From the NCBI GenBank assembly GCA_963836185.1, contig CAWIIQ010000001.1:1920001-1984000 (forward strand): DNA of 64,000 nt. Direction: 5' to 3'. The stretch comes from Candidatus Krumholzibacteriia bacterium. Lineage in GTDB: Bacteria; Krumholzibacteriota; Krumholzibacteriia; Krumholzibacteriales; Krumholzibacteriaceae. The first letter of the stretch is position 1, and each line of letters starts with the position of its first letter. Under the pieces are notes generated by a model that saw nothing but the letters and a program-made list of their open reading frames with translations, made no database searches and had not been told where the DNA came from. Position numbers and translations under genes: made by a program. This document shows, piece after piece, positions 23,401-38,437 of the stretch.

Positions 23401-23420
23401 TCCTCCCTCCTCTTCCGGGC

Positions 23421-24656
23421 CTACCCCCTCATCTCGGCGATCTTCCTTACGGCCTGCTCCTGCATATCCCTGGCCGCCTCGGCCGGGTCGAGCTTCCCTC
23501 CCATCACGGACTGGTAGTAGGGGCGCATCGCGTCCCAGATAGCCCGCATCTCTGGCACCACCGGCATCGGCTGCCCGTGCAGCGCCTGATCCATCGAACC
23601 CTTCAGGACAGGATCAGCGAGAAGGACCTCATCAACGGCGAGGCTGGAGAGCGCCGGAAGGATCTTCAGTTCGGAGGTGATCTCCCTCTGGACCGCTTCT
23701 CCTGTGAGATAGACGAGCAGTTCCTTTACAGCGGGGAGTTTCTCGTCCTTGACGTTGACGCTAATAGAGTAGCCCTTGCTCGATACCATAGGCGCGGGGT
23801 ACTTTCCCGTCTCCGAAATAATCGGTATCGCCATGACGCCTATGTCCATCCCCGCCTCGATGTATGCCTTGAGCGACCAGGGGCCGTTGATGATGAATGC
23901 CGCCTGGCCCTTCTTGAACATCGTGTCGCTGAGCTCATAGTTGCATTCCTTCGGGAGTATCTTGTGCCTGTTGCGAAGGTCGGCCATAAAGGCGAGCGCC
24001 CTCGCCATCGCCGGCGTGTCGAGCGTCGGAGCGTAATTCTTGTCCATCACCTTTCCATTGAATCCGCCCAGGAAAGGAACGAGCCAGAAGGGCTCGACCG
24101 AGTTGAAAACAACGCCGTATATCTCCGGCATCCCGTCTCCGTTCTCGTCTACAGTGAGGCCCTTACACATCTTTATCCACTCATCGCTGTCTCTCGGCTC
24201 CGACTTGACCATCGCTTTGTTGTATATCAGCATGAGGTGGTTGCCGATCTGGTCGGGCACCGCGTAGTTGTGTCCCTCCAGGACACCGAGCGATGACTTC
24301 TCATACGCGCCAAAGAAAGCCGAGTCGAATATCTTTTCGAGTGGCATGATGAGCTGCATCACCGAGTACGGCCCGATCTTGTCGCTCGGCCCGTACACGA
24401 GGTCGGGGCCGCCGCCCGCGAGGGTGGCCGTCTGGAACTGGCTGTGAAGAAGGTCGGTCTCGAAATGTACCGTCGAGACTGTAACACCGGGATGGCTCGC
24501 CATGTAGGCATCGAGCTGCCTGTTGAGGACGACCTGCTCGACAGGGTCCTTCTGTTCCCATATGACGATCTCGTTGGTTCCGTCTCCCCCTCCCCCACAT
24601 CCGGAGAGGACGAGAAACAGGGATGCAAGCGCGAGCGCTGAGATTTTCCTGAACAT
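23421..24656 (-). CDS. malE: Maltose/maltodextrin-binding lipoprotein, MalE-like
   Basis: Lipobox LSGC, GGGPDL, LIYNK, INGPW, PMPVVPEMRAIW; GGAGG RBS. Confidence 0.85.
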   Translation of the reverse strand: MFRKISALALASLFLVLSGCGGGGDGTNEIVIWEQKDPVEQVVLNRQLDAYMASHPGVTVSTVHFETDLLHSQFQTATLAGGGPDLVYGPSDKIGPYSVMQLIMPLEKIFDSAFFGAYEKSSLGVLEGHNYAVPDQIGNHLMLIYNKAMVKSEPRDSDEWIKMCKGLTVDENGDGMPEIYGVVFNSVEPFWLVPFLGGFNGKVMDKNYAPTLDTPAMARALAFMADLRNRHKILPKECNYELSDTMFKKGQAAFIINGPWSLKAYIEAGMDIGVMAIPIISETGKYPAPMVSSKGYSISVNVKDEKLPAVKELLVYLTGEAVQREITSELKILPALSSLAVDEVLLADPVLKGSMDQALHGQPMPVVPEMRAIWDAMRPYYQSVMGGKLDPAEAARDMQEQAVRKIAEMRG

Positions 24657-24667
24657 GAACGACCTCC

Positions 24668-25841
24668 TCAGTCCTTGAGTACTACATATTGCGAGAGATC
24701 GAGCTGCAGGTTCCTCTCGATCTCGCCAGCGGTTTCAGGTCCGGTCTCCGTGAAAGACAAAGGAGAAGACGCGGTAAGTTGCGCCAGTCAGTTTTGCGGA
24801 GCTCGATCACCTTATCGAAGTTGGCCGCGAAGCCTTCGTAATCTATTTCCTCTACATCTTCGACGGGAACATCCTCGGGGATGAAGGCAACATACATCGA
24901 GTAGACCCTGTCTTCCTTCCCGGCGAATATCGTATTCCAGTCAGGTATCTTTCTCTCGAGAAAATACTCATGAGTGTTGATGCCCCATGCGTACCAGCCG
25001 AAATCGGTCCCGCCGAATCCGGCGAACCTCATCGGGTTGGCCTCTATCGGAACGATATCGCAGCCGTCCACCCTCAACTCGATATGAAGGGGAAAATTCT
25101 TCAGGTCGGCCTGCTTCCCGATTCGGGCAAGCGGGCCGGTGAACATCCGTATCCCGTACTCGACGATAGCTTTCGAGGTGACATATGTCGTATCGCTCAC
25201 ATCTGTCCCCGATGAGAAGAGATGGTGAAGGACATTGAGTATAACCGGGCGGCCTGTCTCATCGTAATATACGTCTACCGCGAACTCCTCGCCCTTTATC
25301 CCTTCCTCGATGATGAAGGTGCCCGGATCGAATACCTGTCCGGGATACATCCCCCCGAAACTCTCGAGATCCTCCTCGATCGACTTGCAGGGCGGCGGGC
25401 CAGTCTTCGTCAGATTCTATCTTTCGGACGGCCATGCTGAAGAATCCAACCGCCGGCTTTACGACAAACGGCTTGGGGAGCTCTGACGGGTCGAGATGCC
25501 TGAGCGCCTCGACGTCGATACCGGCGTAGAAGAACTCCGGATGGTCCTCCTCGATCATAGCGCGGAAATCGATCTTGTTCTTCAGCCGGTCGATCCTGTA
25601 GGGAAGTCCGGAAGGCCCGAGGTTTTCGGCGATCCATCCGATCGCGTCCTCCGAGCTGGTATAGATCAGAGGATACTTCTCGCGCGTTCGCCCTGGCGGC
25701 GAACTCCTCCCCGTCGAGGAGTGCGAGGTCGTATTCCTCGGCGACCTTTTCGGAGACGGCGTTTCGCAGCACCGGCGTCCTGAGGCGCTGGAGTGTTTCG
25801 GCGAGAAGATCGGATACGTACGGCCTGTCGAGTATTATCAT
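24668..25841 (-). CDS. ATP-grasp domain protein (at least three frameshifts)
   Basis: KPFVVKPAVGFFS, FIIEEGIKGEEFAVD, HIELRVD...PIEANPMRFAG; reconstructed C-terminus ...LDLSQYVVLKD* ends just before the malE RBS. Confidence 0.8.
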
Positions 25842-26575
25842 TACTTCTTATGCTCCCTGGGGAGCCTTCCGACAGGCATCACGTAGAGAGGCACTTCCTC
25901 TTCGGTCATCCCGATCAGTTTCTTGAGGGCATCGTCGGAGAAGGCGCCGATCGCGCAGGTGCCGAGCCCGAGGGAGCCGCACTGCAGATAGACGTTCTGC
26001 GCCGAGTGGCCGAGGTCCATACAGACATATCTGTCATGCCCGCGCTCCCCGTACTTCTCCGTGCATCTCTCGTAGACGGCGGACCAGACGATCGATACTG
26101 GAGCTTCGCCGGCGAACGGCTGGCTAAGGCAGGCCGCCATCAGGTCGCTTCGGATATCGCCATCGGCGAGCCTGTGGATCAGATGACCCTCAGGTACGTA
26201 CCAGTATATCCCCGGCAGGAGCCCTTTTACGTTTCCCGCTACCAGATATATCTCGAGCGGGTAACGCGCGCCGGCTGAGGGTGCGGTCTTGAACCCGCCG
26301 CGTATGAAATCGGGAAGCCCTTCCTTCGTGTAGGTGATCCCGTAGGCGGACCAGAGAAGTTGTGAGACTTCCTCCAGCGTAACGGGCTCATCGGTATATT
26401 TCCTTACCGACCTGCGCTCATGGAGGACCTTTTCTATCGAGAAATCACTGCTCAAGAGAGGCTTGGGCAGTTCGACTGTCGCAATAGCCTGGTGCTCGAG
26501 AGTGTACTTGCCGCTCCATGCCGTCGTGGGCATCAGGATACAGGCGGCGAGAACGAGGATAGTCAGATATCTCAT
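25841..26575 (-). CDS. SagB/ThcOx-family nitroreductase-fold dehydrogenase with N-terminal signal peptide
   Basis: RRSVRKY, KTAPSAGARYPLEIY, KYGERG, DLGHSAQNVYLQ, GTCAIGAF. Confidence 0.92.
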   Translation of the reverse strand: MRYLTILVLAACILMPTTAWSGKYTLEHQAIATVELPKPLLSSDFSIEKVLHERRSVRKYTDEPVTLEEVSQLLWSAYGITYTKEGLPDFIRGGFKTAPSAGARYPLEIYLVAGNVKGLLPGIYWYVPEGHLIHRLADGDIRSDLMAACLSQPFAGEAPVSIVWSAVYERCTEKYGERGHDRYVCMDLGHSAQNVYLQCGSLGLGTCAIGAFSDDALKKLIGMTEEEVPLYVMPVGRLPREHKK

Positions 26576-26615
26576 CGGGGTCTCCTTTCACATGCAGAAA
26601 AACATGGAAAGGAGA

Positions 26616-26828
26616 CTAACCGTTATCGGGGATATATTCAAGTATATCCCCCGGCTGACAGTCCAGGGCCCTGCAGACAGCTTCGAGTGTCGAGAACCGG
26701 ACGGCCCTGGCCCGTCCTGTCTTGAGGACGGAGAGATTCGCGATCGTCACTCCCACCTCGGATGACAGTTCCGTAAGGGACATCTTCCGTCTGACGAGCA
26801 TCATGTCGAGATTAACGTTGATTGCCAT
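26616..26828 (-). CDS. Cro/C1-type HTH regulator (YozG-like)
   Basis: NLSVLKTGRARAVRFSTLEAVCRALDCQPGDILEY. Confidence 0.95.
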   Translation of the reverse strand: MAINVNLDMMLVRRKMSLTELSSEVGVTIANLSVLKTGRARAVRFSTLEAVCRALDCQPGDILEYIPDNG

Positions 26829-26839
26829 GACACCCTCCC

Positions 26840-27487
26840 TCAGACGGTAAGTTCGCTGTCTTCACACAGGCTCACGCCGTACTGGAATACGTGCCCGATT
26901 ACTACGATAACAAGACCGGCGAATATATAGAATACCCGGAAGTCGGGCTCGATATAGATCTTCGCCCCTTCGATCCCTATCTTCGGCAGCCACATCCACG
27001 CGTAGATGTACTCGAGAATGCCCCAGAAAGGACCGGCCGCCATCACGAGCCAGCCCATCGCCCTTATCCTCGCGGCGTTCACCCGTGTAAAGGGTGTACC
27101 GCTCTTTATAGACTTGATGATCTTCCTGAGGATCATCACTATCCCGAGAAAAAGCATCGAGAGGAGCAGCGGCATTATGACGAAGATCCTCTGCAACCCC
27201 TTCTCGCCGTTCTCCATGACGAGCCGGCTGTACCCGGTGATCTTCGAGCTGGTGATCGAAAGGTCCTGTCCCTGCAGCCAGCCTCCTCCACCGGCGATGT
27301 AGCATACTTCAACCGGGGCACGCGTATACTTCACATGGAATGGAGTGAAGTTCACAGCGATCACGAGAACGACCGAGAGAAGCATCGCGAGAACGGCGAG
27401 CCAGAAGAGGATCTCGACTACTACCACCGATACCTTCGTCGCCGCGGAGGGCTTGAATCCCTGTACCGTCATGACGGCTCCTTTCAT
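26840..27487 (-). CDS. DUF2975 membrane protein
   Basis: 4 TM, PFTRVNAARIR, C-terminal FQYGVSLCEDSELTV; canonical partner of YozG-type HTH genes. Confidence 0.9.
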   Translation of the reverse strand: MKGAVMTVQGFKPSAATKVSVVVVEILFWLAVLAMLLSVVLVIAVNFTPFHVKYTRAPVEVCYIAGGGGWLQGQDLSITSSKITGYSRLVMENGEKGLQRIFVIMPLLLSMLFLGIVMILRKIIKSIKSGTPFTRVNAARIRAMGWLVMAAGPFWGILEYIYAWMWLPKIGIEGAKIYIEPDFRVFYIFAGLVIVVIGHVFQYGVSLCEDSELTV

Positions 27488-27527
27488 TTAGAATCCTGTT
27501 CCGTATACGGGTAGAATGAACATAATG

Positions 27528-27588
27528 TTGCCGTTTTTCAAGCAATTTTTATTGTTTTACGATAATTTATTACCGTATTACGAGGTAA
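27528..27588. promoter_or_regulatory. Three imperfect palindromes at 21-bp spacing, putative operator array
   Basis: TTGCCGTTTTTCAAGCAA (27528), TTATTGTTTTACGATAA (27549), TTACCGTATTACGAGGTAA (27570), upstream of the DUF2975-HTH pair. Confidence 0.55.
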
Positions 27589-27638
27589 GAGCGAAGTCCG
27601 CTTGCATCAGATCACGAATGCAGTTAACATCTTCAGCC

Positions 27639-28043
27639 ATGCGGAGAACGTTCAGAAGAGATATAGGATCGCTCGATGCGCTATTCGCGTTCGCGGAAGA
27701 GTTCGAGACCTGCAACGGCCTCGAGGATCCCGAATCTTACTTCCTCGACCTGACGCTCGAAGAGCTCTTCACAAACCTCGTGCGTCACGCCAACGGAAGC
27801 GAGAATATCGATGTCGAGATAGAACTCGATGACGGCCTTATAACGATCCGCCTTACCGACCGCGAGACCGGACCGTTCGATGGAAACTCGCTCGGCGAAG
27901 TCGACACTGAAGCTCCGCTGATGGAACGCGAGCCGGGCGGGCTCGGCATCCATCTCGTAAAAAAGATGGCGGACAGCCTGGAATACGACTACGATGACGG
28001 CACCCTGGTCATCACGGTAAAGAAGCGCCTGGAGGAAAGATGA
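27639..28043 (+). CDS. Anti-sigma/Ser kinase, RsbW-like (HATPase_c_2)
   Basis: LTLEELFTNLVRHA, LTDRETGPFD, REPGGLGIHLVKKMAD. Confidence 0.92.
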   Translation: MRRTFRRDIGSLDALFAFAEEFETCNGLEDPESYFLDLTLEELFTNLVRHANGSENIDVEIELDDGLITIRLTDRETGPFDGNSLGEVDTEAPLMEREPGGLGIHLVKKMADSLEYDYDDGTLVITVKKRLEER

Positions 28044-28327
28044 CGTTCGACATATCGGTAGCGGGAGATGGAACGATAAGACTCGCCGGAAGGCTCGACT
28101 CGAACCAGGTCGATACGACCAGGACCGTCCTCGAAAAGGTCGAAACGACGGTAAAGGTAGATTTCGCGGAGCTGCGATATATCTCCAGCGCCGGCCTCGG
28201 CCTCCTTCTCGGCACCCAGAAACGCCTCATCGACAAAGGTCACAAGCTTGAGATCATCAACATGACTTCTCACATCCGCGATATCTTCACCATCGCCGGA
28301 TTCGACTTTATATTTGACATAAAGTAA
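28040..28327 (+). CDS. STAS anti-anti-sigma factor (RsbV-like)
   Basis: LAGRLDS, DFAELRYISSAGLG with the phosphorylatable Ser, IFTIAGF; ATGA overlap. Confidence 0.95.
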   Translation: MTFDISVAGDGTIRLAGRLDSNQVDTTRTVLEKVETTVKVDFAELRYISSAGLGLLLGTQKRLIDKGHKLEIINMTSHIRDIFTIAGFDFIFDIK

Positions 28328-28422
28328 AAGTTATTTTACTCTGATTCACAAGCTCTCTAACACAAGGGATTTACAACAACACCTGCAGCACGAGCGTGAC
28401 GGCTGTGGCACGGTCCGGTATT

Positions 28423-28485
28423 CCGGTATCGTCCTCCGTCACCGGCCATCGAAGTGCGCCGGACGGAGGACGTTTTCCATACCGG
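28423..28485 (+). terminator. Long stem-loop between the STAS and ECF genes, possible terminator
   Basis: CGTCCTCCGTC (28430-28440) pairs with GACGGAGGACG (28462-28472), followed by TTTT; CCGGTAT/ATACCGG can extend the stem. Confidence 0.5.
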
Positions 28486-28488
28486 CCG

Positions 28489-28517
28489 CCAACTTTTTCA
28501 TGGTTGGTCTGTATTTA
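28489..28517 (+). promoter_or_regulatory. Putative autoregulatory ECF promoter, copy 1
   Basis: CCAACTTT-N12-CTGTATTTA; the last A is the first base of the ECF start codon. Identical arms and spacing at 29805. Confidence 0.75.
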
Positions 28518-29047
28518 TGTCGACAACGGATTCATCGCTGGTCAACGAGACGCTGAATGGAGACAGGGAAGCGTTCGGAAGGCTGGTGGAGAAGTACGAG
28601 CGGCGGATCTTCAACCTCGCGTTAAGGATCTGCGGCGACTACGAGGAAGCCATGGACGTAACACAGACAGTATTTGTAAAGGCCTTCGACAGGCTGGAGA
28701 CCTTCGATCCTTCGAGGAAGTTCTTCAGCTGGCTCTACAGGATGGGCGTCAACGAATCCCTCAATCAGGTCAAAAGACAGAGCAGGATAGTGCACGTCGA
28801 ATTCGACCCTCCCTCCCGCACTCCGGGACCGGAGCAGCAGCTGATCCGTGAGGAGTCGAACGGGCTCGTGCAGACGGCGCTCAAGAGACTCAGCGAGGAC
28901 CAGAGGGTGGTCATCATCCTCAGGCACTTCGTCGATCTCTCGTACAGCCAGATAGCCGAAGTGCTGGGGATCCATGAGAAGACTGTGAAGTCCAGGCTTT
29001 ACTCAGCCAGGCAGCGGATGAAGGAATTACTTACAGGGGCGGTGTAG
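28517..29047 (+). CDS. ECF RNA polymerase sigma factor (SigW/RpoE-like)
   Basis: DSSLV...GDREAFGRLVEKY, DVTQTVFVKAF, FFSWLYRM, LSYSQIAEVLGIHEKTVKSRLYSAR. Confidence 0.95.
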   Translation: MSTTDSSLVNETLNGDREAFGRLVEKYERRIFNLALRICGDYEEAMDVTQTVFVKAFDRLETFDPSRKFFSWLYRMGVNESLNQVKRQSRIVHVEFDPPSRTPGPEQQLIREESNGLVQTALKRLSEDQRVVIILRHFVDLSYSQIAEVLGIHEKTVKSRLYSARQRMKELLTGAV

Positions 29048-29050
29048 GTC

Positions 29051-29788
29051 ATGACCATAGATGAAAGATACATAAGGATGATGAACGAGGAGATCGACGG
29101 TGTCATCTCCGATGAGGACGCTGAGAGACTCGCTTCATATGTCAGCTCCGATCCGGAGGCCGGGAGATACTACAAGGAGCTTCGGGCGACGGTCGAGGCT
29201 ATCGACGGCACGAGAGATGTCGAGCCACCCTCCGAACTCAGGGAACGGATCTTCAGTTCGGTATACGAACGCTCCCTGGAAGAGGCAGTGGCCCGCCCCC
29301 CCGAAAGAAACGTTTTCTGGCGGTCGTTCGTGCCGGTCTTCGCTGCCGGCGTAGCGGCAGGATTCATACTCTTCGCCGCGATACGGCAGCTGCCGGACCG
29401 GGCACCGGATGAACCTGGATACGGAGCGACTATCGGAGCGGCTTCCGGAGAAGATGAGACCACAGGAAGATTCGACGCTTTCGGGGTGAAGGGCAGCATA
29501 ACCCCCGTATTCGAGAGCGGTTCTGCGACTATCACATTAGACCTGGCTTCAGAGGCGGATGCCAGCATCCTCCTCGAGTTCGAGGATGGAACATCCTTCG
29601 AGTCGATCAGGTCGAGCGAGGGAACTGCCTACCAGATGGAGGTCGATGAAAAGAGCCTCCTGCTCGTACATAACGGCATCGCGGAATATATCGTCAGACT
29701 CAGATCGGCGGGATCCACGTCTTTCGTGCTGCGGATCTTCACCGATGGCAAGACTGTGGCGGCGACGAAATATTCCGCCGGAGAATAA
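29051..29788 (+). CDS. Transmembrane anti-sigma factor
   Basis: Cytoplasmic ASD-like N-terminus (EIDGVISDED...EPPSELRERI), one TM (FVPVFAAGVAAGFILFAAI), periplasmic beta-rich domain. Confidence 0.85.
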   Translation: MTIDERYIRMMNEEIDGVISDEDAERLASYVSSDPEAGRYYKELRATVEAIDGTRDVEPPSELRERIFSSVYERSLEEAVARPPERNVFWRSFVPVFAAGVAAGFILFAAIRQLPDRAPDEPGYGATIGAASGEDETTGRFDAFGVKGSITPVFESGSATITLDLASEADASILLEFEDGTSFESIRSSEGTAYQMEVDEKSLLLVHNGIAEYIVRLRSAGSTSFVLRIFTDGKTVAATKYSAGE

Positions 29789-29804
29789 AAACAGGCTGAT
29801 CTGA

Positions 29805-29833
29805 CCAACTTTCGAAAGACCCGCCTGTATTTA
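29805..29833 (+). promoter_or_regulatory. Putative ECF promoter, copy 2, upstream of the repeat-protein gene
   Basis: CCAACTTT-N12-CTGTATTTA ending 58 nt upstream of ATG 29891, which has an AAGGAGG RBS. Confidence 0.75.
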
Positions 29834-29890
29834 GGGTGAACAGTAAATCAGTCAGCGGCAGAAACCCATTTACCAGAAGGAGGGCACCAG

Positions 29891-31858
29891 ATGACCAGGA
29901 ACAAGGTTCTACTGGTGGTTGTCCTGATCGCGATCGCAGTGGTCGCCTACTTCGCCTTCTTCCATCCTCCCACAGGCCGTGAAGGCGCCGAAGGGACGAT
30001 AGGAGTGGTGGAAAAGCACCGTGACCAGCAGATGAGCGACGAGGACGTAGTACTGAATTTCGAGGGGGATTACGAGTCGGAATACACTATCGACAATATC
30101 ATCTCCCCTGAGGAAATGGCTGCTCTGTTCGAGCGCACTAATATGCAGGAAAAGGCCAATCTCATGCAGAGGGTCTCGATCCAGCAGAAGGCGGAGCTGG
30201 CCGATCTCGTCCCGACGCAGGAACGCGTCTCTATGGTCGAGCGCGCCACTCCGATGGAACGTGTCTCCATGTTCCAGCGTTTCTCGATCCAGGATCGAAC
30301 CAGCATCATGAAGAGACTGTCGATGACCATGGAAGCGTTCAACAAGCTGCCCATGCAGGAAAAATCAGCTCTCATGATGGAAAAGTTCTCTGTCCAGGAG
30401 AAATCCTCCCTGATGCAGACGGCTACCATCCAGGAGAAGGCCGCCATCATGGAGAGGCTCTCCATCCAGAAAAGGGCCGATATCATGATGCGCGCCTCGA
30501 TCCAGCAGAAGGCCGCGATATTCAACCGCACCTCGATCCAGGAGCGCCTCGACATCATGGAGCGCTGCTCGATCCAGCAGAAGGCATCGATATTCAATCG
30601 TGCCTCGAGTGCTGAGCAGGCCTCGATGTTCGAGAAAGCTACATTCATGGAGAAGGCGGCGATATTCAATCGCACCAACGTCCAGGAGCGCATGAGATCA
30701 TGAACAGGCTTTCCGTTCAGGACCGGACCTCCCTGATGAAGAGATCGTCGATCACGATGGAAGCCTTCGACAAGCTCCCGGCGCAGGAGAAGTCCGCCGT
30801 CATGATGGAGAAGTTCTCGATCCAGGAGAAGGCCCAGTTGATGGACAGGTTCTCGATCCAGGAGAAGGCCAACATAATGCAGAGAGCCTCTGTCACGGAA
30901 CGCGCGAATATCATGCAGCGCGCCTCGATCACGGAGAGAGCCTCTATCATGCAGAGGACCAGCATCATGGGCAGGACCTCTTTCACCTTCGAGCGGGCCT
31001 CGGTCCATGGAACGCGCCGATATAATGCAGCGCGCATCGGTCACGGAAAAAGCGGCGATCTTCGATCATGCCACGGTCCAGGAACGTATGGAGCTCATGA
31101 GCAGGCTTTCCGTTCAGGATCGGACCTCGCTGATGAAGAAATCATCGATAACGATGGAAGCCTTCGACAAGCTCCCGATGCAGGAAAAATTCTCGGTCAT
31201 GAACAAGTTCTCGGTACAGGAGAAGGCCGCCATGATGGAGAAGTTCTCGGTACAGGAAAAATCCAGCATCATGGAGCGCACCTCGATCCAGATGAGAACC
31301 TCGCTGATGGAACGCGCGTCGATCCAGCAGAAAGCCTCGATCATGGAGAGGGTCAATATCCAGGAGCGGGCGTTTGTCTTCCAGAGGGCCTCGGTCATGG
31401 AGAAGGCGAACGTGTTCGCCAGGGCCACTGCCCAGGAGCAGGTCGACATGTTCGCTCGCTGCTGCATGCAGGAAAAGGCCGCGATATTCAACCGCACCTC
31501 GGTACAGGAGCGCACCGAACTTATGCAGCGCCTCTCTGTCCAGGACCGCACTTCGGTACTCAACCGGGCCGCGATCACGATGGAAGCCTTTGAAAAGCTC
31601 CCGATGCAGGAGAAGGCCGCCGTCATGATGGAGAAGTTCTCGGTACAGGAGAAGGCCCAGCTGATGGACAGGTTCTCGGTACAGGAGAGAGTCAGCATAA
31701 TGGGGCGTGCATCAGTCATGGAGAAGGCCTCGATATTCAACAGGGCCTCGATCACCGAGAAAGCCAGCATCATGGGACGCTTCTCGGTGCAGGAAAGAGC
31801 CTCTGTATTCAACAGGGCCTCGGTCATGGAGAGGTCGTCGATAAGCAGGGAAATCTAG
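29891..31858 (+). CDS. Membrane-anchored or exported Met-rich tandem-repeat protein (~655 aa; compensating frameshifts near 30694 and 31005)
   Basis: N-terminal TM, short unique segment (GAEGTIGVVEKHRDQQMSDEDVVL), then ~45 units of consensus R(A/F)S(I/V)QEKAxI(M/F)x. The three track ORFs join into one if a G is added at ATG[G]AGATC and a C removed at GTC[C]ATG. Confidence 0.85.
30115..31850 (+). repeat. Coding tandem repeat, 36-bp unit, nested in four ~400-430-bp higher-order blocks
   Basis: Recurring TC(G/T)(A/G)TCCAGGAGAAGGCC-type words; block marker ATGGAAGC (MEAF) at 30329, 30757, 31154 and 31580. Confidence 0.9.
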
Positions 31859-31904
31859 GGGTCCCTCGCACTTTTGATATGAAGCGGAAGAGGGGATGAG
31901 TGGT

Positions 31905-31945
31905 AGGAAGGAGCAGCCCGGCACCGACCGGGCTGCCTCCTTCCT
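31905..31945 (+). terminator. Strong stem-loop between the repeat gene and the surface peptidase gene
   Basis: AGGAAGGA-GCAGCCCGG / CCGGGCTGC-C-TCCTTCCT; no adjacent U-tract. Confidence 0.6.
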
Positions 31946-31970
31946 GCCGCGTTTCAGTCAAAGGAAGGAT

Positions 31971-34900
31971 ATGAGAGGTTTCAAATCGACCGCCGGCCTG
32001 CTTTCCCGCTCGATTCCCGTCCTCATCGCCGCCGCGGCGGTCTTTCTCGTTCCGCAGCGGGTATCGGGCCAGGACGAATATGTACAGTCAAAGCCTTACC
32101 AGCTCAAATACAGGGCCTACGAGACAGAGGACCTCAGGATCTTCTACTTTTATCGCGAGCAGGAGTATGTCATAGAGCACGTGGCTCGCTGCTTCGAGAA
32201 CGCGTTCCGGTATCACCAGAAGTTCTTCGATTACACGCCGAGTGGCGAGGTCACGGTCTATTTCAATGACGACGATGACTACGGATACGCCGGCACCACT
32301 GTCATCCCGAACAACTGGATCACCCTCGGCATCGAGCCGTTCGAGTATGTATACGACACATGCCCGACTAACGAGCGGATGAACTGGGTGATGAACCACG
32401 AGCTCGTCCACGTCACCGCCTCCGACCAGGCTACCGGGTGGGACTCGAGGTTCAGGAAGCTCTTCTTCGGAAAGGTCCACCCTGTCGCGGAGGATCCCGT
32501 CTCTATATTCTACGCATACCTCACTACGCCCCGACTCTACTCTCCGCGCTGGTACCATGAGGGTATCGCAGTATTCATGGAGACATGGATGGCAGGCGGT
32601 ATCGGACGATCGCTGACTGGTTACGACGAGATGACCTTCAGGGCGATGGTCCGCGACAGCATGCAGTTCCATACCGTCGTCGGACTCGAATCGGAAGGGA
32701 CGGCGAAGGATTTCCAGATCGGCCAGGTGTCGTATCTCTACGGCACGAGGTTCTTCAGTTATCTCTCACTTATGCACGGTCCGGAATCCGTCATCGAATG
32801 GGTGCGCCGCAACGAGGGAAGCGGCGCCTATTTTTCGACACAGTTCCGGAATGTCTACGGCGCCTCGATCTACGAGAAATGGGACGAATGGATAGAATTC
32901 GAGAAGGAGTGGCAGACGACCAACCTCGACGATTCTATCCGGCAGTATCCCGTCACTCCTTCCAGGCAACTCTGTGAGCGGCCTCTCGGCTCGGTATCGA
33001 GGGAGTTCTTCGATCCCGGAGAAACGAAAACTGTACACAGCGGTAAACTATCCCGGCGAGTTCTCCCACATCGCCGAGATAGATATCGATTCGGGAAAGA
33101 TGCGCAAGATCTGCGAGATAGAGACCCCGGCCCTCTACTACGTCACCGGACTCGCCCACGACCCGGAGAGCGGCACTCTCTTCTTCACCACCGATAACAG
33201 CAGGGGCTTCCGCGACGTTAACTCGGTCGATATAGAGACAGGGAAGACGAAGTCGCTCTGCAAGGATATCCGAACCGGCGACCTCGTCTACTGCCGGGCC
33301 GATTCGACGCTCTGGGGCATCATGCACAATGAGGGATTCTCCAGCATCGTGATGTTCGTTCCTCCCATACAATGACGGATACGAGCTCATCAAGCTCAGG
33401 TACGGGATCGACCTGTTCGATATCGATATCTCGCCGGACGGCAAGTATCTGACCGGCACGATGACAGACATAAGCGGCCGGCAGAGGCTCATCAGGATGG
33501 AGACGGAAAGACTGATGTTCGGGGACGGTACCTGGGAGCTGATCCACGAGTTCGCGGACAATAACGCGGCCAATTTCGTTCACTCGCCCGACGGGCGGTA
33601 CCTTTACGGGACATCGTACGTGACCGGCGTATCGAATATATTCAGGTTCGATCTCGAGCAGTGGAAGCTCGAGGCGATGAGCAACTTCGAGATCGGGGGC
33701 TTCCGCCCCCTTCCCGTATCGGACGATTCGCTGATAACATTCACTTACACCGGGAGAAGGCTTCGAGCCTGTGATGATACCGGTAAAACCGATCGAGGAC
33801 GTTGCAGTCGATAAGGTATCTCGGCCAGGCGGTCATACTGGAGCACCCCGTCCTCGACGGACTGGAAGCTCTCGTCGCCGAAGCAGATCGAGATCGACTC
33901 AATGATGACATACGAGGGCGAGTACAGCCCGACAAAGAACCTGCGGGTGACCTCCCTCTACCCGATCGTCGAGGGGTACAAGGAATACGGTACGATCGGG
34001 CTGCGGTTCAACATGATGGACCCGGTCGGGATAAACGCTCTCGACATGGCCGCCTCATACACACCGAACACGAACCTGCCGGAGAACGAACGGGCCCACT
34101 TCAGGTTCAAGTTCTCGAGGGGCACGATGGGGGGCGACAGGGTATTACAACCGCGCCGACTTCTACGACCTCTTCGGCCCGACGAAGGTGAGCAGGAAGG
34201 GACATTCGCTCGCCCTCGATTACGACTACGGATTCGTCGTCGACAGGCCGAAGAGGCTCGGCCTGAACGTCCGCGCCGCCGCCTACGGCAACCTCGAGTA
34301 TCTCCCCCACTACCAGAACGTGCAGGCGACGATAAAGGATTTCTACACTCTCGAGGGGTCCCTCCACTTCAGGCACACAAGGGGAACGATCGGCGGGATA
34401 CAGGCGGAGAAGGGGATGCTCTTCTCCCTGAACAGTTATAACTCCCTGGTCAACGGCGACCTCTACCCCCTCTTCTACGGGCACCCTGGATTACGGTGTC
34501 CTGCTTCCATGGGACCATTCGTCGATATGGCTCAGGACATCGGGCGGCTTCTCCTTTGGAGACAGGGATGAATCGAACTCGTACTTCTTCTTCGGGGGAT
34601 TCGGGAACAACTGGGTCGACCACAAGAGGGTCAACAGGTACAGGGAGTTTTACGCCTTCCCCGGCGTCGAGCTCAACGAGATCGGCGGCACGAACTTCCT
34701 CAAGGGGATGGTCGAATGGACGCTGCCGCCCCTGAGGTTCTCCTCCTTCGGAAAGCCGTCGCTCTATGCCAACTGGGCGAGCCTCGCCTTCTTCGGATCG
34801 GTCATCGCGACCAATGTCGATGCCGGACTACGAAGGGGTCGAGGTGGCAAATGCGGGCACACAGCTGAACCTGAAGATCGTATTCTTCTCGTCGCTGCAG

Positions 34901-34991
34901 ACGACCTTCTCGGCCGGTTACGCTTTCGCTTTCGAGGAGGGCCGTAGCGCCGAGAGAAGAGTTGATGCTGTCCTTGAAGATATTGAGATAA
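31971..34991 (+). CDS. Large exported protein (~1000 aa): zincin-like HExxH domain, TolB-like beta-propeller and putative C-terminal beta-barrel (many frameshifts)
   Basis: Signal peptide; NHELVHV...PRWYHEGIAV gluzincin-like motif; DISPDGKYL and HSPDGRYLY propeller blades; C-terminal strands FFFGGFGNNWVD, VEWTLPPLRF, ending ...ELMLSLKILR*. Confidence 0.75.
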
Positions 34992-35010
34992 ACAGAAGGG
35001 GTATTGTGAG

Positions 35011-36111
35011 TTGAACTACCTACTGGCCATCCTCCCCGTCCTCGTCTTCCTCCTCGTCCTCAAGGCGATGGATTCGTTCAAGCTCGTCAGTTTCCGGCAT
35101 GTCGCGGCAAGCCTCGCGGCCGGATTCGCCGCGGCTGTCGCCGCCTTCTTCATCACGAAGCAGCTCATGCCGGCACTCGGTCTCTCCATATACTCCCCGA
35201 TATACTCGAGATATATCGCTCCCGATGCTCGAGGAGGCGCTTAAAGGGGCCTGGATCATCTGGCTGCTCTGACGAGGCGCAGGACAGGATTCATGGTCGA
35301 CACGGCGATACACGGCTTCGCGATAGGTGCCGGGTTCGCAATCGTCGAGAACGTATACTATCTCAATAATATGACAGGGTACGGTATAGCCTTCGGCATA
35401 GTCCGCGGATTCGGACCGGCCCTGATGCACGGCACCTCGACAGCGATCTTCGGGGTCCTCGCGAAGACAGCCTCCGAGCTGCGCGGCTCGGTATCCACCG
35501 CGACGGTGCTTCCCCGCCTTCCTGATAGCCGTTCTGATACATTCGCTGTTCAATCACTTCTTCATCTCCCCCCTGGTCTCGGCCCTGGCCCTGCTCATCG
35601 GCGTCCCGCTGGTGATGACGCTTGTCTTCCAGCCAGAGCGAACGCTCACTGCGCAAGTGGCTCGGGATAGGCTTCGATTCCGACCAGCAGATGCTGGAGA
35701 TGATAACCTCCGGGCGATATCGCGAGCACACCGGTCGGCGAATACCTCATCTCGCTCAAGCGCACCTTCACCGGGGAGACGGTCGCCGACATGCTCTGCT
35801 GCCTCAGGCTGCATCTCGAGCTCTCTATCAGGGCCAAGGGTATCCTGCTGATGAGGGAGAACGGATTCGAGCCTCCTCCCGATCCGGATGTCGAGGAGAT
35901 GTTCAGGGAACTGAAATACCTCGAGGGCCGCATAGGGGTGACGGGCAAACTCGCGCTGCACCCGCTGCTGCGCTGGAGCAGCCGCGATCTCTGGCAGCTT
36001 CACATGCTGTCGGGATTCATGCCGGGGAAGCGACCTCTGATCCCCGAAAAGAGAAGGGCGACCGACTGGCGGCCGCCCTTTGATTCCAAATACTGGCTTA
36101 GCAGGCTCTAG
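35011..36111 (+). CDS. PrsW-family intramembrane glutamic protease with soluble C-terminal extension (several frameshifts)
   Basis: Reconstructed motifs APMLEEALKG, GFAIGAGFAIVENVYY, ALMHGT, LIHSLFNHF. True stop may be near 36040, before the hairpin. Confidence 0.85.
36047..36081. terminator. Hairpin between the convergent PrsW-family and histone genes
   Basis: AAGGGCG(A)CCG / CGG(C)CGCCCTT stem with TTT on the + side and TCTCTTTTC on the - side. Confidence 0.6.
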
Positions 36112-36285
36112 AAATCGAACGGGTAGATGGTCTTGCGCTTGTTGCCCTTCGCCCTCTCGGCGGCGGCCTTTGACCATCTCGGCGATCTGAGCGTTAAGAG
36201 CCTCAGCCGCGTCTCCACTCATCCTGAGACCATGCTTCTTGGCCAGATCCTTGATCCTCGAGGCGTAAACGAAAGTCTCTGCCAT
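36108..36285 (-). CDS. Bacterial histone-fold protein, 58 aa (one extra base near 36170)
   Basis: Removing one base at GTC-AAA-G gives MAETFVYASRIKDLAKKHGLRMSGDAAEALNAQIAEMVKAAAERAKGNKRKTIYPFDF*; RKTxxxxD histone clamp, R(M)S loop, AAGGAGG RBS, downstream hairpin. Confidence 0.85.
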
Positions 36286-36386
36286 CTTATCCCTCCTTCT
36301 TTCTGTCGTTTGACAGGCTTAGAGACGAGTTGCTTACCTTTTTACCTGAACGGTAGCCTAAACTGCTTCCATTTGCCTTGTCAACG

Positions 36387-37085
36387 TCAATTGTCACTTT
36401 TTTTAAGGATTATTCTAGCATCGGCGATGACGCATCTTTCCTCCGTACAAAGCACCGGATTGAGATCTATCGATTCAATCTCGTCTGTCATCTCGACGAG
36501 CAGGCTCGAAAAACCGACGACCAGTTCTTTCAGCCTGGCGATATTGACACCGGCCGCTCCGCGGAAGCCGCGCAAGTACGCTCCCCGCCTTTAACTCGTC
36601 TATCATCGACTCGACGATTATCTTCAGTGACAGGCGCCATCCTTATCGCTGTATCCTTGTAGATCTCTACGCCGACACCGCCCATACCGGCCAGCACCAC
36701 AGCTCCGAACTGCTCATCGATCTTTCCGCCGACGATGACCTCTATCCCGGAGAGCATCTCCTCGACGAGGATCCCCTCGAATCCTTCGATCCCGCTGAAC
36801 CGGCCGGCGACCTCCCGCATCGCTTCGGGACCGTCTATACCGACGGCTACGCCCCCGGCAGTCGGACTTGTGGATGACATCGGGCGAAACGATCTTCGCC
36901 ACGACGGGCCAGCCGATCCGTCCGCCCGCCTCGACCGCCTCCTCTTCAGTCCTTACCCATTCGAACCGGGGTACGTCGAAGCCGGCTTCGGCGAAGAGGC
37001 GCTTCGCCTCCGGCTCGAGGACCCAGCCATGTTTCTTCGATTCGTTGAGTATGGCGGCAGCAGTTTCGCTCAGCATGGCTTGCAC
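36387..37085 (-). CDS. ADP-forming acyl-CoA synthetase beta (ATP-grasp) subunit (frameshifts near 36860 and 36590)
   Basis: VLEPEAKRLF, PVVAKIVSPDVIHKSD, GILVEEM, GMGGVGVEIYKD, SIDLNPV...IADARI. Confidence 0.88.
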
Positions 37086-38437
37086 CTCTTCATCGCCTCG
37101 ACCATCAGGACCGCTCCTTCGATCGAGTGGGAAACTGGAACATTGTTGAGCTGGAAGCCCTCTATGATCATCCTGTATTTCTCTACGTGCGGCACGTAAG
37201 CCACGATCGGTTTACCCTCCTCCTGGTATACCTGGCTGAGCCTCGCCCCCACATCGGAGGTGACCTCGGGGATATATGGCAGGAGAAGCATGATAACGCA
37301 GTCGATGTCGTCAAGCCTGCTCAGCTCACCGGCCGCTATCACAAAATCGTCATCCCGGGCGCTGCCGGTGAGATCTATCGGATTGCCAAGCGAGGCGATA
37401 GGCTGGACGCTCTCTGAGAGACGTCCGCGTATCCTGCTCTGCACCTCTTCGGAGAACTCCGGAACGATGAGGCCCGAAGCCTCGCAGGTATCGACGGCGA
37501 CGGCGCCGTGTCCCCCGCTCGCCGTCACTATCCCGACTCTGCCCTCGATCCCCCTCGGGTAGCAGCTCAGCGATTCACAGAAGGAGACCATCTCGTACTC
37601 GTCCTTCGCCTCGACGATCCCGAACTGGCTCATCACGGAGGAAAATACGTGTAGTCACCCGCGATCGAGGCGGTATGGCTCGATACCGCCCGGCTGCCGG
37701 CCTGGCTCTTGCCGGCCTTCATGATTATGACCGGTTTCGGGCTTCTGCTCGCAGCCAGGACGAACTCCCGTCCCTCACCGGGGCCGAATCCTTCGACATA
37801 GAAAGCGATGACATCCGTCTTCTCGTCCCTCGCGAAGTACTTGAGCAGTTCGAGTTCTCCAACAGCCGCCTTGTTCCCGATACTGACCGCCCTGGAGAGC
37901 CCTATCCCCTGTCCCGCGAATTTCACCATCTGGTCGACGAGTATCCCGCCGCTCTGGCTGACGATGGCTACGTTACCCGCCTCGGGCCTTACCATCCTCT
38001 CGCTCGGCAGGAAAGAGAGAATCGACCAGCCCGGAAGAATATATCCCGAGACAGTTGGGGCCTATTATGGGGAAATCGGCCTCCGCGGCGATCTCTTCGA
38101 ACTGCTGCCGCAGGTCGAGCCTGCCCGTCTCGGCGAATCCTCCCGATATCACGGCTGCCCCGCCGACCCATGCGTCGATGCATTCCCTCAGAACGCCCGG
38201 TACATGCTCGGCCCTCACAGCGATGATAGCCAGGTCGATCTTCTCCGGGATCTCGGAGATCGAGGTGTATATCTTTTCCTTGTGGTACATCCCGCCCTTC
38301 GGATTCACTCCGAAGACCTTCACCGGGTAGCGGAAGAAGTTTTTATTATAGATGATATTGGCGGGGTGTCGCTCATTGCTCAGCGACAGTCCGACAACAG
38401 CCATCGTCTTCGGCTCGAACAGGGTCCTGAAATCCAA
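37070..38437 (-). CDS. ADP-forming acyl-CoA synthetase alpha (CoA-binding) subunit (frameshifts near 38010 and 37640)
   Basis: ISGGFAETG, IIGPNCLG, VSQSGG, SIGNKA, phospho-His motif SSHTASIAG, NPIDLTG. Confidence 0.9.

What the first reader, a model, noticed from the sequence alone, without database searches (positions are those of the whole stretch)
36108..36285. Bacterial histone masked by a one-base insertion
Seen: the track's 243-aa ORF is an artefact. Deleting one base near 36170 gives a 58-aa basic protein, MAETFVYASRIKDLAKKHGLRMSGDAAEALNAQIAEMVKAAAERAKGNKRKTIYPFDF, with a strong SD and a downstream hairpin. Established: short alpha1, R-x-S loop, long alpha2 and RKTxxxxD define prokaryotic histone folds such as Bdellovibrio Bd0055 and archaeal HMf. 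Ending just after the Asp resembles the short 'face-to-face' class. Inference: histone-based chromatin in this little-studied lineage.
Basis: partly seen in the sequence, partly recalled or inferred. Interest (0 to 1): 0.8.

Follow-up and report, generated by a model that had tools for sequence, protein, structure and literature searches.

The report
Face-to-face histone hidden by assembly error
This is a gene for a small bacterial histone resembling the known "face-to-face" type, intact in all close relatives examined and most likely broken here only by an assembly error; it likely wraps DNA as a four-subunit ring beside the cell's ordinary DNA-packaging proteins.

Summary
One extra base at 36167-36172 breaks a 58-codon gene. 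It is intact in 6 of 6 same-genus genomes and one sister genus (78-97% identity). The break is very likely an assembly artefact: over 33.2-37.9 kb the window has 21 sites with extra bases and 1 with a missing base against all four relatives aligned.

The intact orthologue folds as a short-alpha3 histone (best match HLp of Leptospira, TM 0.88, rmsd 1.1 A). It keeps the face-to-face residues R44, N48, R50, T52, D57 and terminal F58; Bd0055 lacks R44 and N48. The tetramer itself could not be modelled.

The lineage is Ca. Krumholzibacteriota. 139 of 208 genomes of the phylum carry a related histone, but only 8 of 52 in this order. The genome keeps three HU/IHF genes, so 'histone-based chromatin' is unproven.

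The scan already noted a 56-aa face-to-face histone in another Krumholzibacteriota genome (e1-6633024); this one belongs to a different subgroup. Verdict: new member of a known kind.

The parts
36109..36285 (-). Gene for a 58-aa tail-less alpha3-truncated (face-to-face-type) histone, interrupted by one extra base in this assembly
36167..36172 (.). Span within which the one extra base lies (codon 39). Relatives have one base fewer and read Lys there; the window shows the two synonymous Lys codon variants of the relatives run together
   Evidence: (K39 in 40 of 40 58-aa records); two contigs of run X8 lack the base at 36169 (related strains, not this one)
36292..36297 (-). Shine-Dalgarno AGGAGG, 6 nt before the ATG
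   Evidence: invariant in window plus 6 genus genomes; also in G008
36303..36316 (-). Small 5-bp hairpin in the putative 5' leader: stem invariant, loop variable in 6 of 7 genus sequences (one stem change in G004)
   Evidence: folding z -0.49, so conservation only; no compensatory change seen
36355..36384 (-). Candidate sigma70-type promoter, TTGACA-18 nt-TAGGCT, directly after the stop of the upstream gene
   Evidence: both hexamers invariant in 7 of 7 genus sequences; the consensus scan did not call it because the -10 box matches 3 of 6
36054..36080 (-). Terminator-like GC-rich hairpin with T-rich tail, between the histone gene and the convergent PrsW-family gene

Best explanation
The stretch is a conserved single-copy gene for a 58-residue, tail-less histone of the short-alpha3 kind in a Ca. 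Krumholzibacteriota genus, likely broken here only by an assembly error, whose product is predicted to form a face-to-face homotetramer that would wrap about 60 bp of DNA without sequence preference. Shown here: the gene, its conservation, the monomer fold (predicted model of the orthologue) and the retention of the tetramer and DNA-contact residues. Inferred from HLp and HTkC: two chains pair head to tail through alpha2; two dimers close into a ring through R44 (to the partner's C-terminal carboxyl at F58), N48 and R50; K12, K16, G24 and the L2 loop (K51, T52) form a basic band that binds the DNA backbone. It is likely transcribed from its own promoter and acts alongside HU/IHF, as an additional chromatin protein and not the only one.
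For: Artefact: intact in 6 of 6 same-genus genomes plus G008. Against four relatives at once, 33.16-37.9 kb has 21 extra-base sites (19 single) and 1 missing, spread over four genes and their spacers. Frame switches in 24 of 160 orthologue comparisons against this genome versus 3 of 219 among relatives. Contig C5 of the same assembly is a 91.7%-identical second version of window 24.7-35.0 kb, and the window has extra bases against it too, pointing to a mixed-strain consensus. No decay: against G001, 5 synonymous and 1 non-synonymous codon differences in 56 codons, none non-synonymous after the break. Fold: model pLDDT 81.7 with helices 8-17, 24-47 and a 3-residue alpha3. Foldseek top hit HLp 9QT0 (E 8e-5, TM 0.88, rmsd 1.1 A, 38% identity). 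Sequence search: HLp 36.7 bits versus Bd0055 22.0. Residues: R44, N48, R50, D57, F58 align with HLp R49, N53, R55, D62, F63; K12, K16, G24, T52 with HLp DNA contacts K17, K21, G29, T57. All nine are invariant in 40 of 40 close 58-aa records. R44 aligns with HTkC R45, whose mutation gives dimers.
Against: No reads of this strain were available, so the extra base is not directly disproved (best run shares 0.14 of words). The monomer fold does not separate the subfamilies: Z 8.4 for HLp, 8.3 for HBb, 7.8 for HTkC, tied. Four HLp interface or DNA-contact residues differ (S52->G47, T61->F56, T27->M22, T56->K51). Pfam histone families stay below their cut-offs for the orthologue (19.2 vs 26.4 and 17.2 vs 21.4 bits). 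There are no data on expression or DNA binding. The SMC-linked neighbourhood reported for Leptospira is not seen here.
Confidence: 0.82

Rival explanations
1. The gene is intact in the organism, but the protein works as a DNA-bending dimer like HBb/Bd0055 and not as a wrapped tetramer.
For: The monomer model fits HBb as well as HLp (TM 0.88 each; Z 8.3 vs 8.4). It has the RKT form of the loop seen in bacterial dimers and coexists with HU/IHF, as HBb does.
Against: Bacterial dimers lack the two interface residues; Bd0055 has S and D where this protein has R44 and N48. Both are invariant in 40 of 40 close records, and the chain ends at the position where the HLp and HTkC C-terminus contacts that Arg.
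Confidence: 0.08
2. The extra base is real and the gene is a fresh pseudogene in this strain, part of a locally decaying region.
For: No such histone was found in 44 of 51 other genomes of the order, so loss is evidently tolerated. The neighbours are broken too. No reads of this strain could be checked.
Against: The damage is almost only extra bases (21 versus 1), also in the spacers. Substitutions are mostly synonymous. Promoter-like boxes, SD and hairpin are unchanged. Real decay in bacteria is usually deletion-biased (own knowledge). A second-strain contig overlaps the adjacent region.
Confidence: 0.04
3. The protein is a face-to-face tetramer but of low abundance or condition-specific, with a local regulatory or protective role and not bulk chromatin packaging.
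For: A full HU/IHF set is kept; distribution is patchy in the order; expression of face-to-face histones varies among archaea.
Against: Perfect SD and -35 box and a stand-alone layout suggest strong expression (inference). Characterised members are abundant. This rival differs from the best explanation only in amount and timing.
Confidence: 0.25
4. The extra base is a programmed +1 frameshift or slippage site that regulates histone synthesis.
For: None beyond the presence of the shift.
Against: 0 of 7 related genomes and 0 of 40 close protein records show it; 18 more single extra bases lie nearby.
Confidence: 0.01

Closest known systems
HLp, face-to-face alpha3 histone of Leptospira perolatii (PDB 9QT0/9QT1/9QT2; PMC12701072)
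   Same: Fold (TM 0.88, rmsd 1.1 A over 56 residues, 38% identity); RD clamp; tetramer residues R49/N53/R55/F63; DNA contacts K17/K21/G29/T57; chain ends in DF.
   Different: No N-terminal extension here. S52, T61, T27 and T56 are replaced. The host keeps three HU/IHF genes, which Leptospira is reported to lack. The neighbourhood is an acyl-CoA ligase gene pair and PrsW, not SMC. Tetramer and DNA wrapping are untested for this protein.
HTkC, archaeal face-to-face histone of Thermococcus kodakarensis (PDB 9F2C; PMC11390915; bioRxiv 10.64898/2025.12.06.692711)
   Same: Tail-less, similar length (58-59 aa), TM 0.85; the Arg needed for the tetramer is kept (R45 = R44); works beside other chromatin proteins.
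   Different: 28-29% identity; HTkC has Glu at the N48 position; archaeal host.
HBb / Bd0055, bacterial dimer histone of Bdellovibrio bacteriovorus (PDB 8FVX, 8CMP; PMC10627809)
   Same: Short alpha2 and alpha3, RKT loop, S9-basic motif, equal monomer fit, coexistence with HU.
   Different: Bd0055 lacks R44 and N48 and is a dimer; lower sequence score (22.0 vs 36.7 bits).
Archaeal nucleosomal histones HMfA/HMfB
   Same: Histone fold and RxTxxxxD motif.
   Different: Those have a longer alpha2 and a full alpha3; match only at E about 3e-4 with the profile and TM about 0.6 for related archaeal histones.

Membership tests
alpha3 (alpha3-truncated) prokaryotic histones | Histone fold: alpha1-L1-alpha2-L2-alpha3 | tested here: met
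   Model of the G001 orthologue (1 residue different outside the break)
alpha3 (alpha3-truncated) prokaryotic histones | alpha3 of only 3-4 residues and alpha2 shorter than in nucleosomal histones | tested here: met
   alpha3 of 3 residues, alpha2 residues 24-47; ungapped alignment with HLp over 56 residues; definition
alpha3 (alpha3-truncated) prokaryotic histones | RxTxxxxD motif (RD clamp) | tested here: met
   R50-K-T52-x4-D57, invariant R, T, D in 40 of 40 close records
Face-to-face (FtF) histones | Toroidal homotetramer (the formal definition, predicted or solved) | not tested
Face-to-face (FtF) histones | Interface Arg and Asn (H. volcanii R41/N45; HLp R49/N53; HTkC R45) | tested here: met
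   R44 and N48
Face-to-face (FtF) histones | C-terminus directly after the motif Asp, free to pair with the interface Arg | tested here: met
   Ends D57-F58-stop, as HLp D62-F63
Face-to-face (FtF) histones | Conserved alpha1 lysine(s) for DNA binding | tested here: met
   K12 and K16 = HLp K17 and K21
Face-to-face (FtF) histones | Non-specific DNA wrapping of about 60 bp | not testable with these tools
   Needs EMSA, MNase or TPM
Bacterial dimer histones (HBb/Bd0055) | Absence of the FtF interface Arg and Asn | tested here: not met
   Both are present
Archaeal nucleosomal histones (HMf) | Full-length alpha3 of about 10 residues | tested here: not met
   definition

The most novel reading that the evidence does not exclude
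Two genera of this order re-acquired a tail-less face-to-face histone from outside after their order had lost the phylum's usual one. It was inserted as its own transcription unit behind an acyl-CoA ligase gene pair and became a major DNA-wrapping protein on top of an unchanged HU/IHF set. With 44 histone-less sister genomes and 131 of 156 histone-bearing genomes in the other families, Krumholzibacteriota would be a natural experiment in how bacteria gain, lose and swap histone chromatin.
Probability: 0.3. Interest if true: 0.55.

Novelty: new member of a known kind. Interest (0 to 1): 0.3.

Why it matters
Bacterial histones are rare (under 2% of genomes, PMC10627809 and PMC12701072) and only two are characterised. 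This adds a minimal, tail-less member, and a count showing that about two thirds of the searched genomes of one uncultured phylum carry such a gene. The phylum is not among those named in the passages I read of the survey papers. The sharp presence/absence pattern within one order allows comparative tests of what a histone adds to HU/IHF-based nucleoids. Practically, it shows that tiny histone genes are hidden by indels in mixed-strain assemblies. It does not reveal a new mechanism.

Tried and rejected
Tetramer prediction: the complex predictor was not available, so there is no verdict.

Reads of the source strain: none found. No RNA holder is listed, and all runs had small shares (at most 0.14), so nothing is concluded on habitat or expression. 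One contig of the possibly-RNA run X1 covers 36287-37078 at about 95% identity and ends in a poly-T loose end just before the ATG; it does not cover the histone gene and is not used. A second read-laying on the gene alone gave no result.

Named loci of the histone in GTDB contigs: nothing confirmed with the single protein; the alignment was too diverse for that search.

Separate horizontal origin of this subgroup: it forms its own supported branch (100/96), apart from the phylum's main 56-aa clade (100/99), on an otherwise unresolved 58-column tree. An AU test on a reduced set (51 rows; 14 held together; quick tree, simpler model; groups chosen after seeing the first tree) did not reject one clade (p 0.79). 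Transfer is therefore not shown.

'Both alleles side by side' as the mechanism of the extra bases: 18 of 19 sites lie within 2 nt of a column that varies among relatives, against a background of 0.72. This is suggestive only.

A second histone in this genome: none by tblastn or motif scan or by profile (its two matches are the two halves of this gene).

Functional link to neighbours: the ligase gene pair lies upstream in all 7 other histone-bearing genomes of the order, but the 23 other loci examined have it without the histone, and PrsW was not found in the 1.5 kb downstream in G006. The adjacency reads as inherited position.

Promoter scan: no consensus hit.

Literature: 'Krumholzibacteri' plus 'histone' gave 0 papers; none of the 20 listed for the broader search contains the phylum name.

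Full report
1. The observation. The feature is on the minus strand. An ATG at 36285 follows AGGAGG at 36297-36292. In frame it runs for 243 codons to 35554, but after codon 39 the histone-like text continues in another frame and stops at TAG 36111-36109. A GC-rich hairpin with a T-rich tail follows at 36080-36054. It is not above chance by itself but is recognisable in the six same-genus relatives. Upstream, TTGACA-18 nt-TAGGCT (36384-36355) is invariant in the window and six genus relatives, though too weak at -10 for the scan. An own transcription unit is therefore likely but inferred.

2. Is the extra base real? Probably not. All 6 same-genus genomes and one of a sister genus (G008) have the uninterrupted 58-codon frame at 78-97% identity. 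All 40 58-aa database records compared (9 cluster representatives and 31 listed members) have Lys at 39, and four differ from P0001 at one residue only. In a multiple alignment of window 33,160-37,900 with four relatives, the window has extra bases against all four at 21 sites (19 single bases) and lacks a base at 1. These hit the outer-membrane-protein-like gene, PrsW, the histone, the ATP-grasp gene and the spacers alike. The 4-kb bins at window 32 and 36 kb show 12:1 and 10:3 extra:missing against G003; most other bins are balanced, though 56 kb shows 9:3. In a wider sample, 24 of 160 orthologue comparisons against this genome show frame switches, versus 3 of 219 among relatives. Those comparisons are not independent, include spurious ORFs and undercount breaks. 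Contig C5 of the same assembly is a second version of window 24.7-35.0 kb (91.7% identical, identical over 27-29 kb), but it stops before the histone. Substitutions in the gene are mostly synonymous: 5 versus 1 codons against G001, and 184 versus 58 pairwise among six relatives. Two contigs of run X8, from related strains, lack the base at 36169. Reads of the strain itself were not available, so the artefact is inferred, at about 95%.

3. What the protein is. The best solved relative by sequence is HLp of Leptospira perolatii (E 4e-8), then Bd0055/HBb (2e-3) and HTkC (5e-3); a 77-sequence profile ranks HLp, HTkC, HBb. Pfam gives histone families below cut-off; JGI labels several close relatives 'histone H3/H4'. 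I folded the intact G001 orthologue with that alignment: pLDDT 81.7, pTM 0.56, helices 8-17 and 24-47 and a three-residue alpha3. Foldseek ranks HLp first (TM 0.88, rmsd 1.1 A), with HBb and HTkC next and nucleosomal histones far lower. VIA-align ties the three (Z 8.4, 8.3, 7.8), so the fold gives the alpha3 family but not the subfamily. The subfamily rests on residues. Schwab et al. define face-to-face histones by a tetramer with conserved R41, N45, R47, T49, D54 and say bacterial dimers lack the first two. Here the same spacing gives R44, N48, R50, T52, D57, the nearly invariant columns of the alignment. They match HLp R49, N53, R55, T57, D62, with F58 = F63; Bd0055 has Ser and Asp at the first two. 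R44 equals HTkC R45, whose loss turns tetramer into dimer. HLp DNA contacts K17, K21, G29, T57 are kept; T27 and T56 are not. The orthologue has 11 K+R against 7 D+E, pI 9.7.

4. Mechanism. By analogy with HLp and HTkC: head-to-tail dimers close into a ring of four that wraps about 60 bp without sequence preference and compacts or constrains DNA. All of this is inferred. Unlike Leptospira, the genome has three HU/IHF-family genes, as do all six genus relatives (3-4 each) and, with at least one, 61 of 61 genomes searched. The histone is thus an addition to a conventional nucleoid toolkit; how much of the chromosome it covers is unknown.

5. Lineage and distribution. The G008 protein is named Ca. 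Krumholzibacteria by NCBI, and a window transporter's best named hit (86%) is a Ca. Krumholzibacteriota genome. The profile finds a match in 139 of 208 genomes of the phylum (87 of 125 good-quality ones). In the window's order only this genus (7 of 7 with the window) and G008 have one, 8 of 52; the other six families have 131 of 156. Absence means not found in those searched; several are incomplete. Of 43 loci translated (top-scoring, so biased), 42 have RxxxNxRxTxxxxD; L017 looks like a Bd0055-type dimer. The genus group is a separate supported branch from the phylum's main 56-aa clade, but a single origin is not rejected (p-AU 0.79). The gene lies behind an acyl-CoA ligase alpha/ATP-grasp pair in all 7 other carriers of the order; 23 other loci of that pair have no histone in the 0.9-1.5 kb downstream.

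6. What is known. Papers seen: PMC12701072 (first two of nine parts, Discussion, passages); PMC11390915 (passages; three supplements listed, one a scan without text); PMC10627809 (passages; supplement searches); bioRxiv 10.64898/2025.12.06.692711 (abstract and one section); others as search listings only. The bacterial phyla named for face-to-face histones are Spirochaetota, Planctomycetota, Bdellovibrionota and Myxococcota. No paper held 'Krumholzibacteri' with 'histone'. In the Hocher workbook the name occurs once, in the genome list and not the histone table, and this subgroup's motif is absent, although relatives of the phylum's other subgroups are listed from Planctomycetes and Bdellovibrionota. 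The main supplementary PDF of Schwab et al., with the phylum-level figures, was too large to read, and two Hocher files were not searched, so prior listing of this phylum cannot be excluded. The scan itself has an unchecked note on a 56-aa face-to-face histone in another Krumholzibacteriota genome and several similar notes from other lineages; no look-alike of this sequence was indexed.

7. Verdict. It works like, and by all residue tests belongs to, the face-to-face subfamily; the defining tetramer is untested. New member of a known kind; interest 0.3. The more interesting side result is the phylum-wide, order-patchy distribution.

Noticed in passing
window 33160-37900: Dense run of extra bases (21 sites versus 1 missing, against four relatives) breaking an outer-membrane-protein-like gene, PrsW, the histone and the ATP-grasp gene; any odd ORFs in this stretch should be treated as likely artefacts.
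   Followed up: yes
G000 contig C5 (12.5 kb) versus window 23419-34985: A second version of this region, about 90% identical at the flanks and identical over 27-29 kb: likely a second strain binned with the genome.
   Followed up: partly
window 29891-31858 (+): A protein with an N-terminal membrane anchor and many Met/Gln-rich repeats of about ten residues (MgtE_N-like hits, E 4e-13), split over three frames here; G005 has a 585-aa ORF at the matching place.
   Followed up: no
G050, G055, G060 (L009, L011, L015, L020-L022); G048 (L017): Several genomes of the phylum hold two histones of different subgroups: a 56-aa tail-less one and a Lys-tailed Bacteriovoracia-like one; G048 has a Bd0055-like dimer type. 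Candidates for histone variants in bacteria.
   Followed up: partly
P0014-P0022 and similar: Many top hits are 117-150-aa proteins with two tandem alpha3 histone folds; the four printed keep RxxxNxRxT in both halves. Such doublets could form the ring from two chains.
   Followed up: no
window 36387-38437 (-): Split acyl-CoA ligase-like pair (CoA-binding/ligase subunit plus a separate ATP-grasp subunit; the ADP-forming acetate-CoA ligase reading is from recall); the ATP-grasp gene matched in 38 of 52 genomes of the order.
   Followed up: partly
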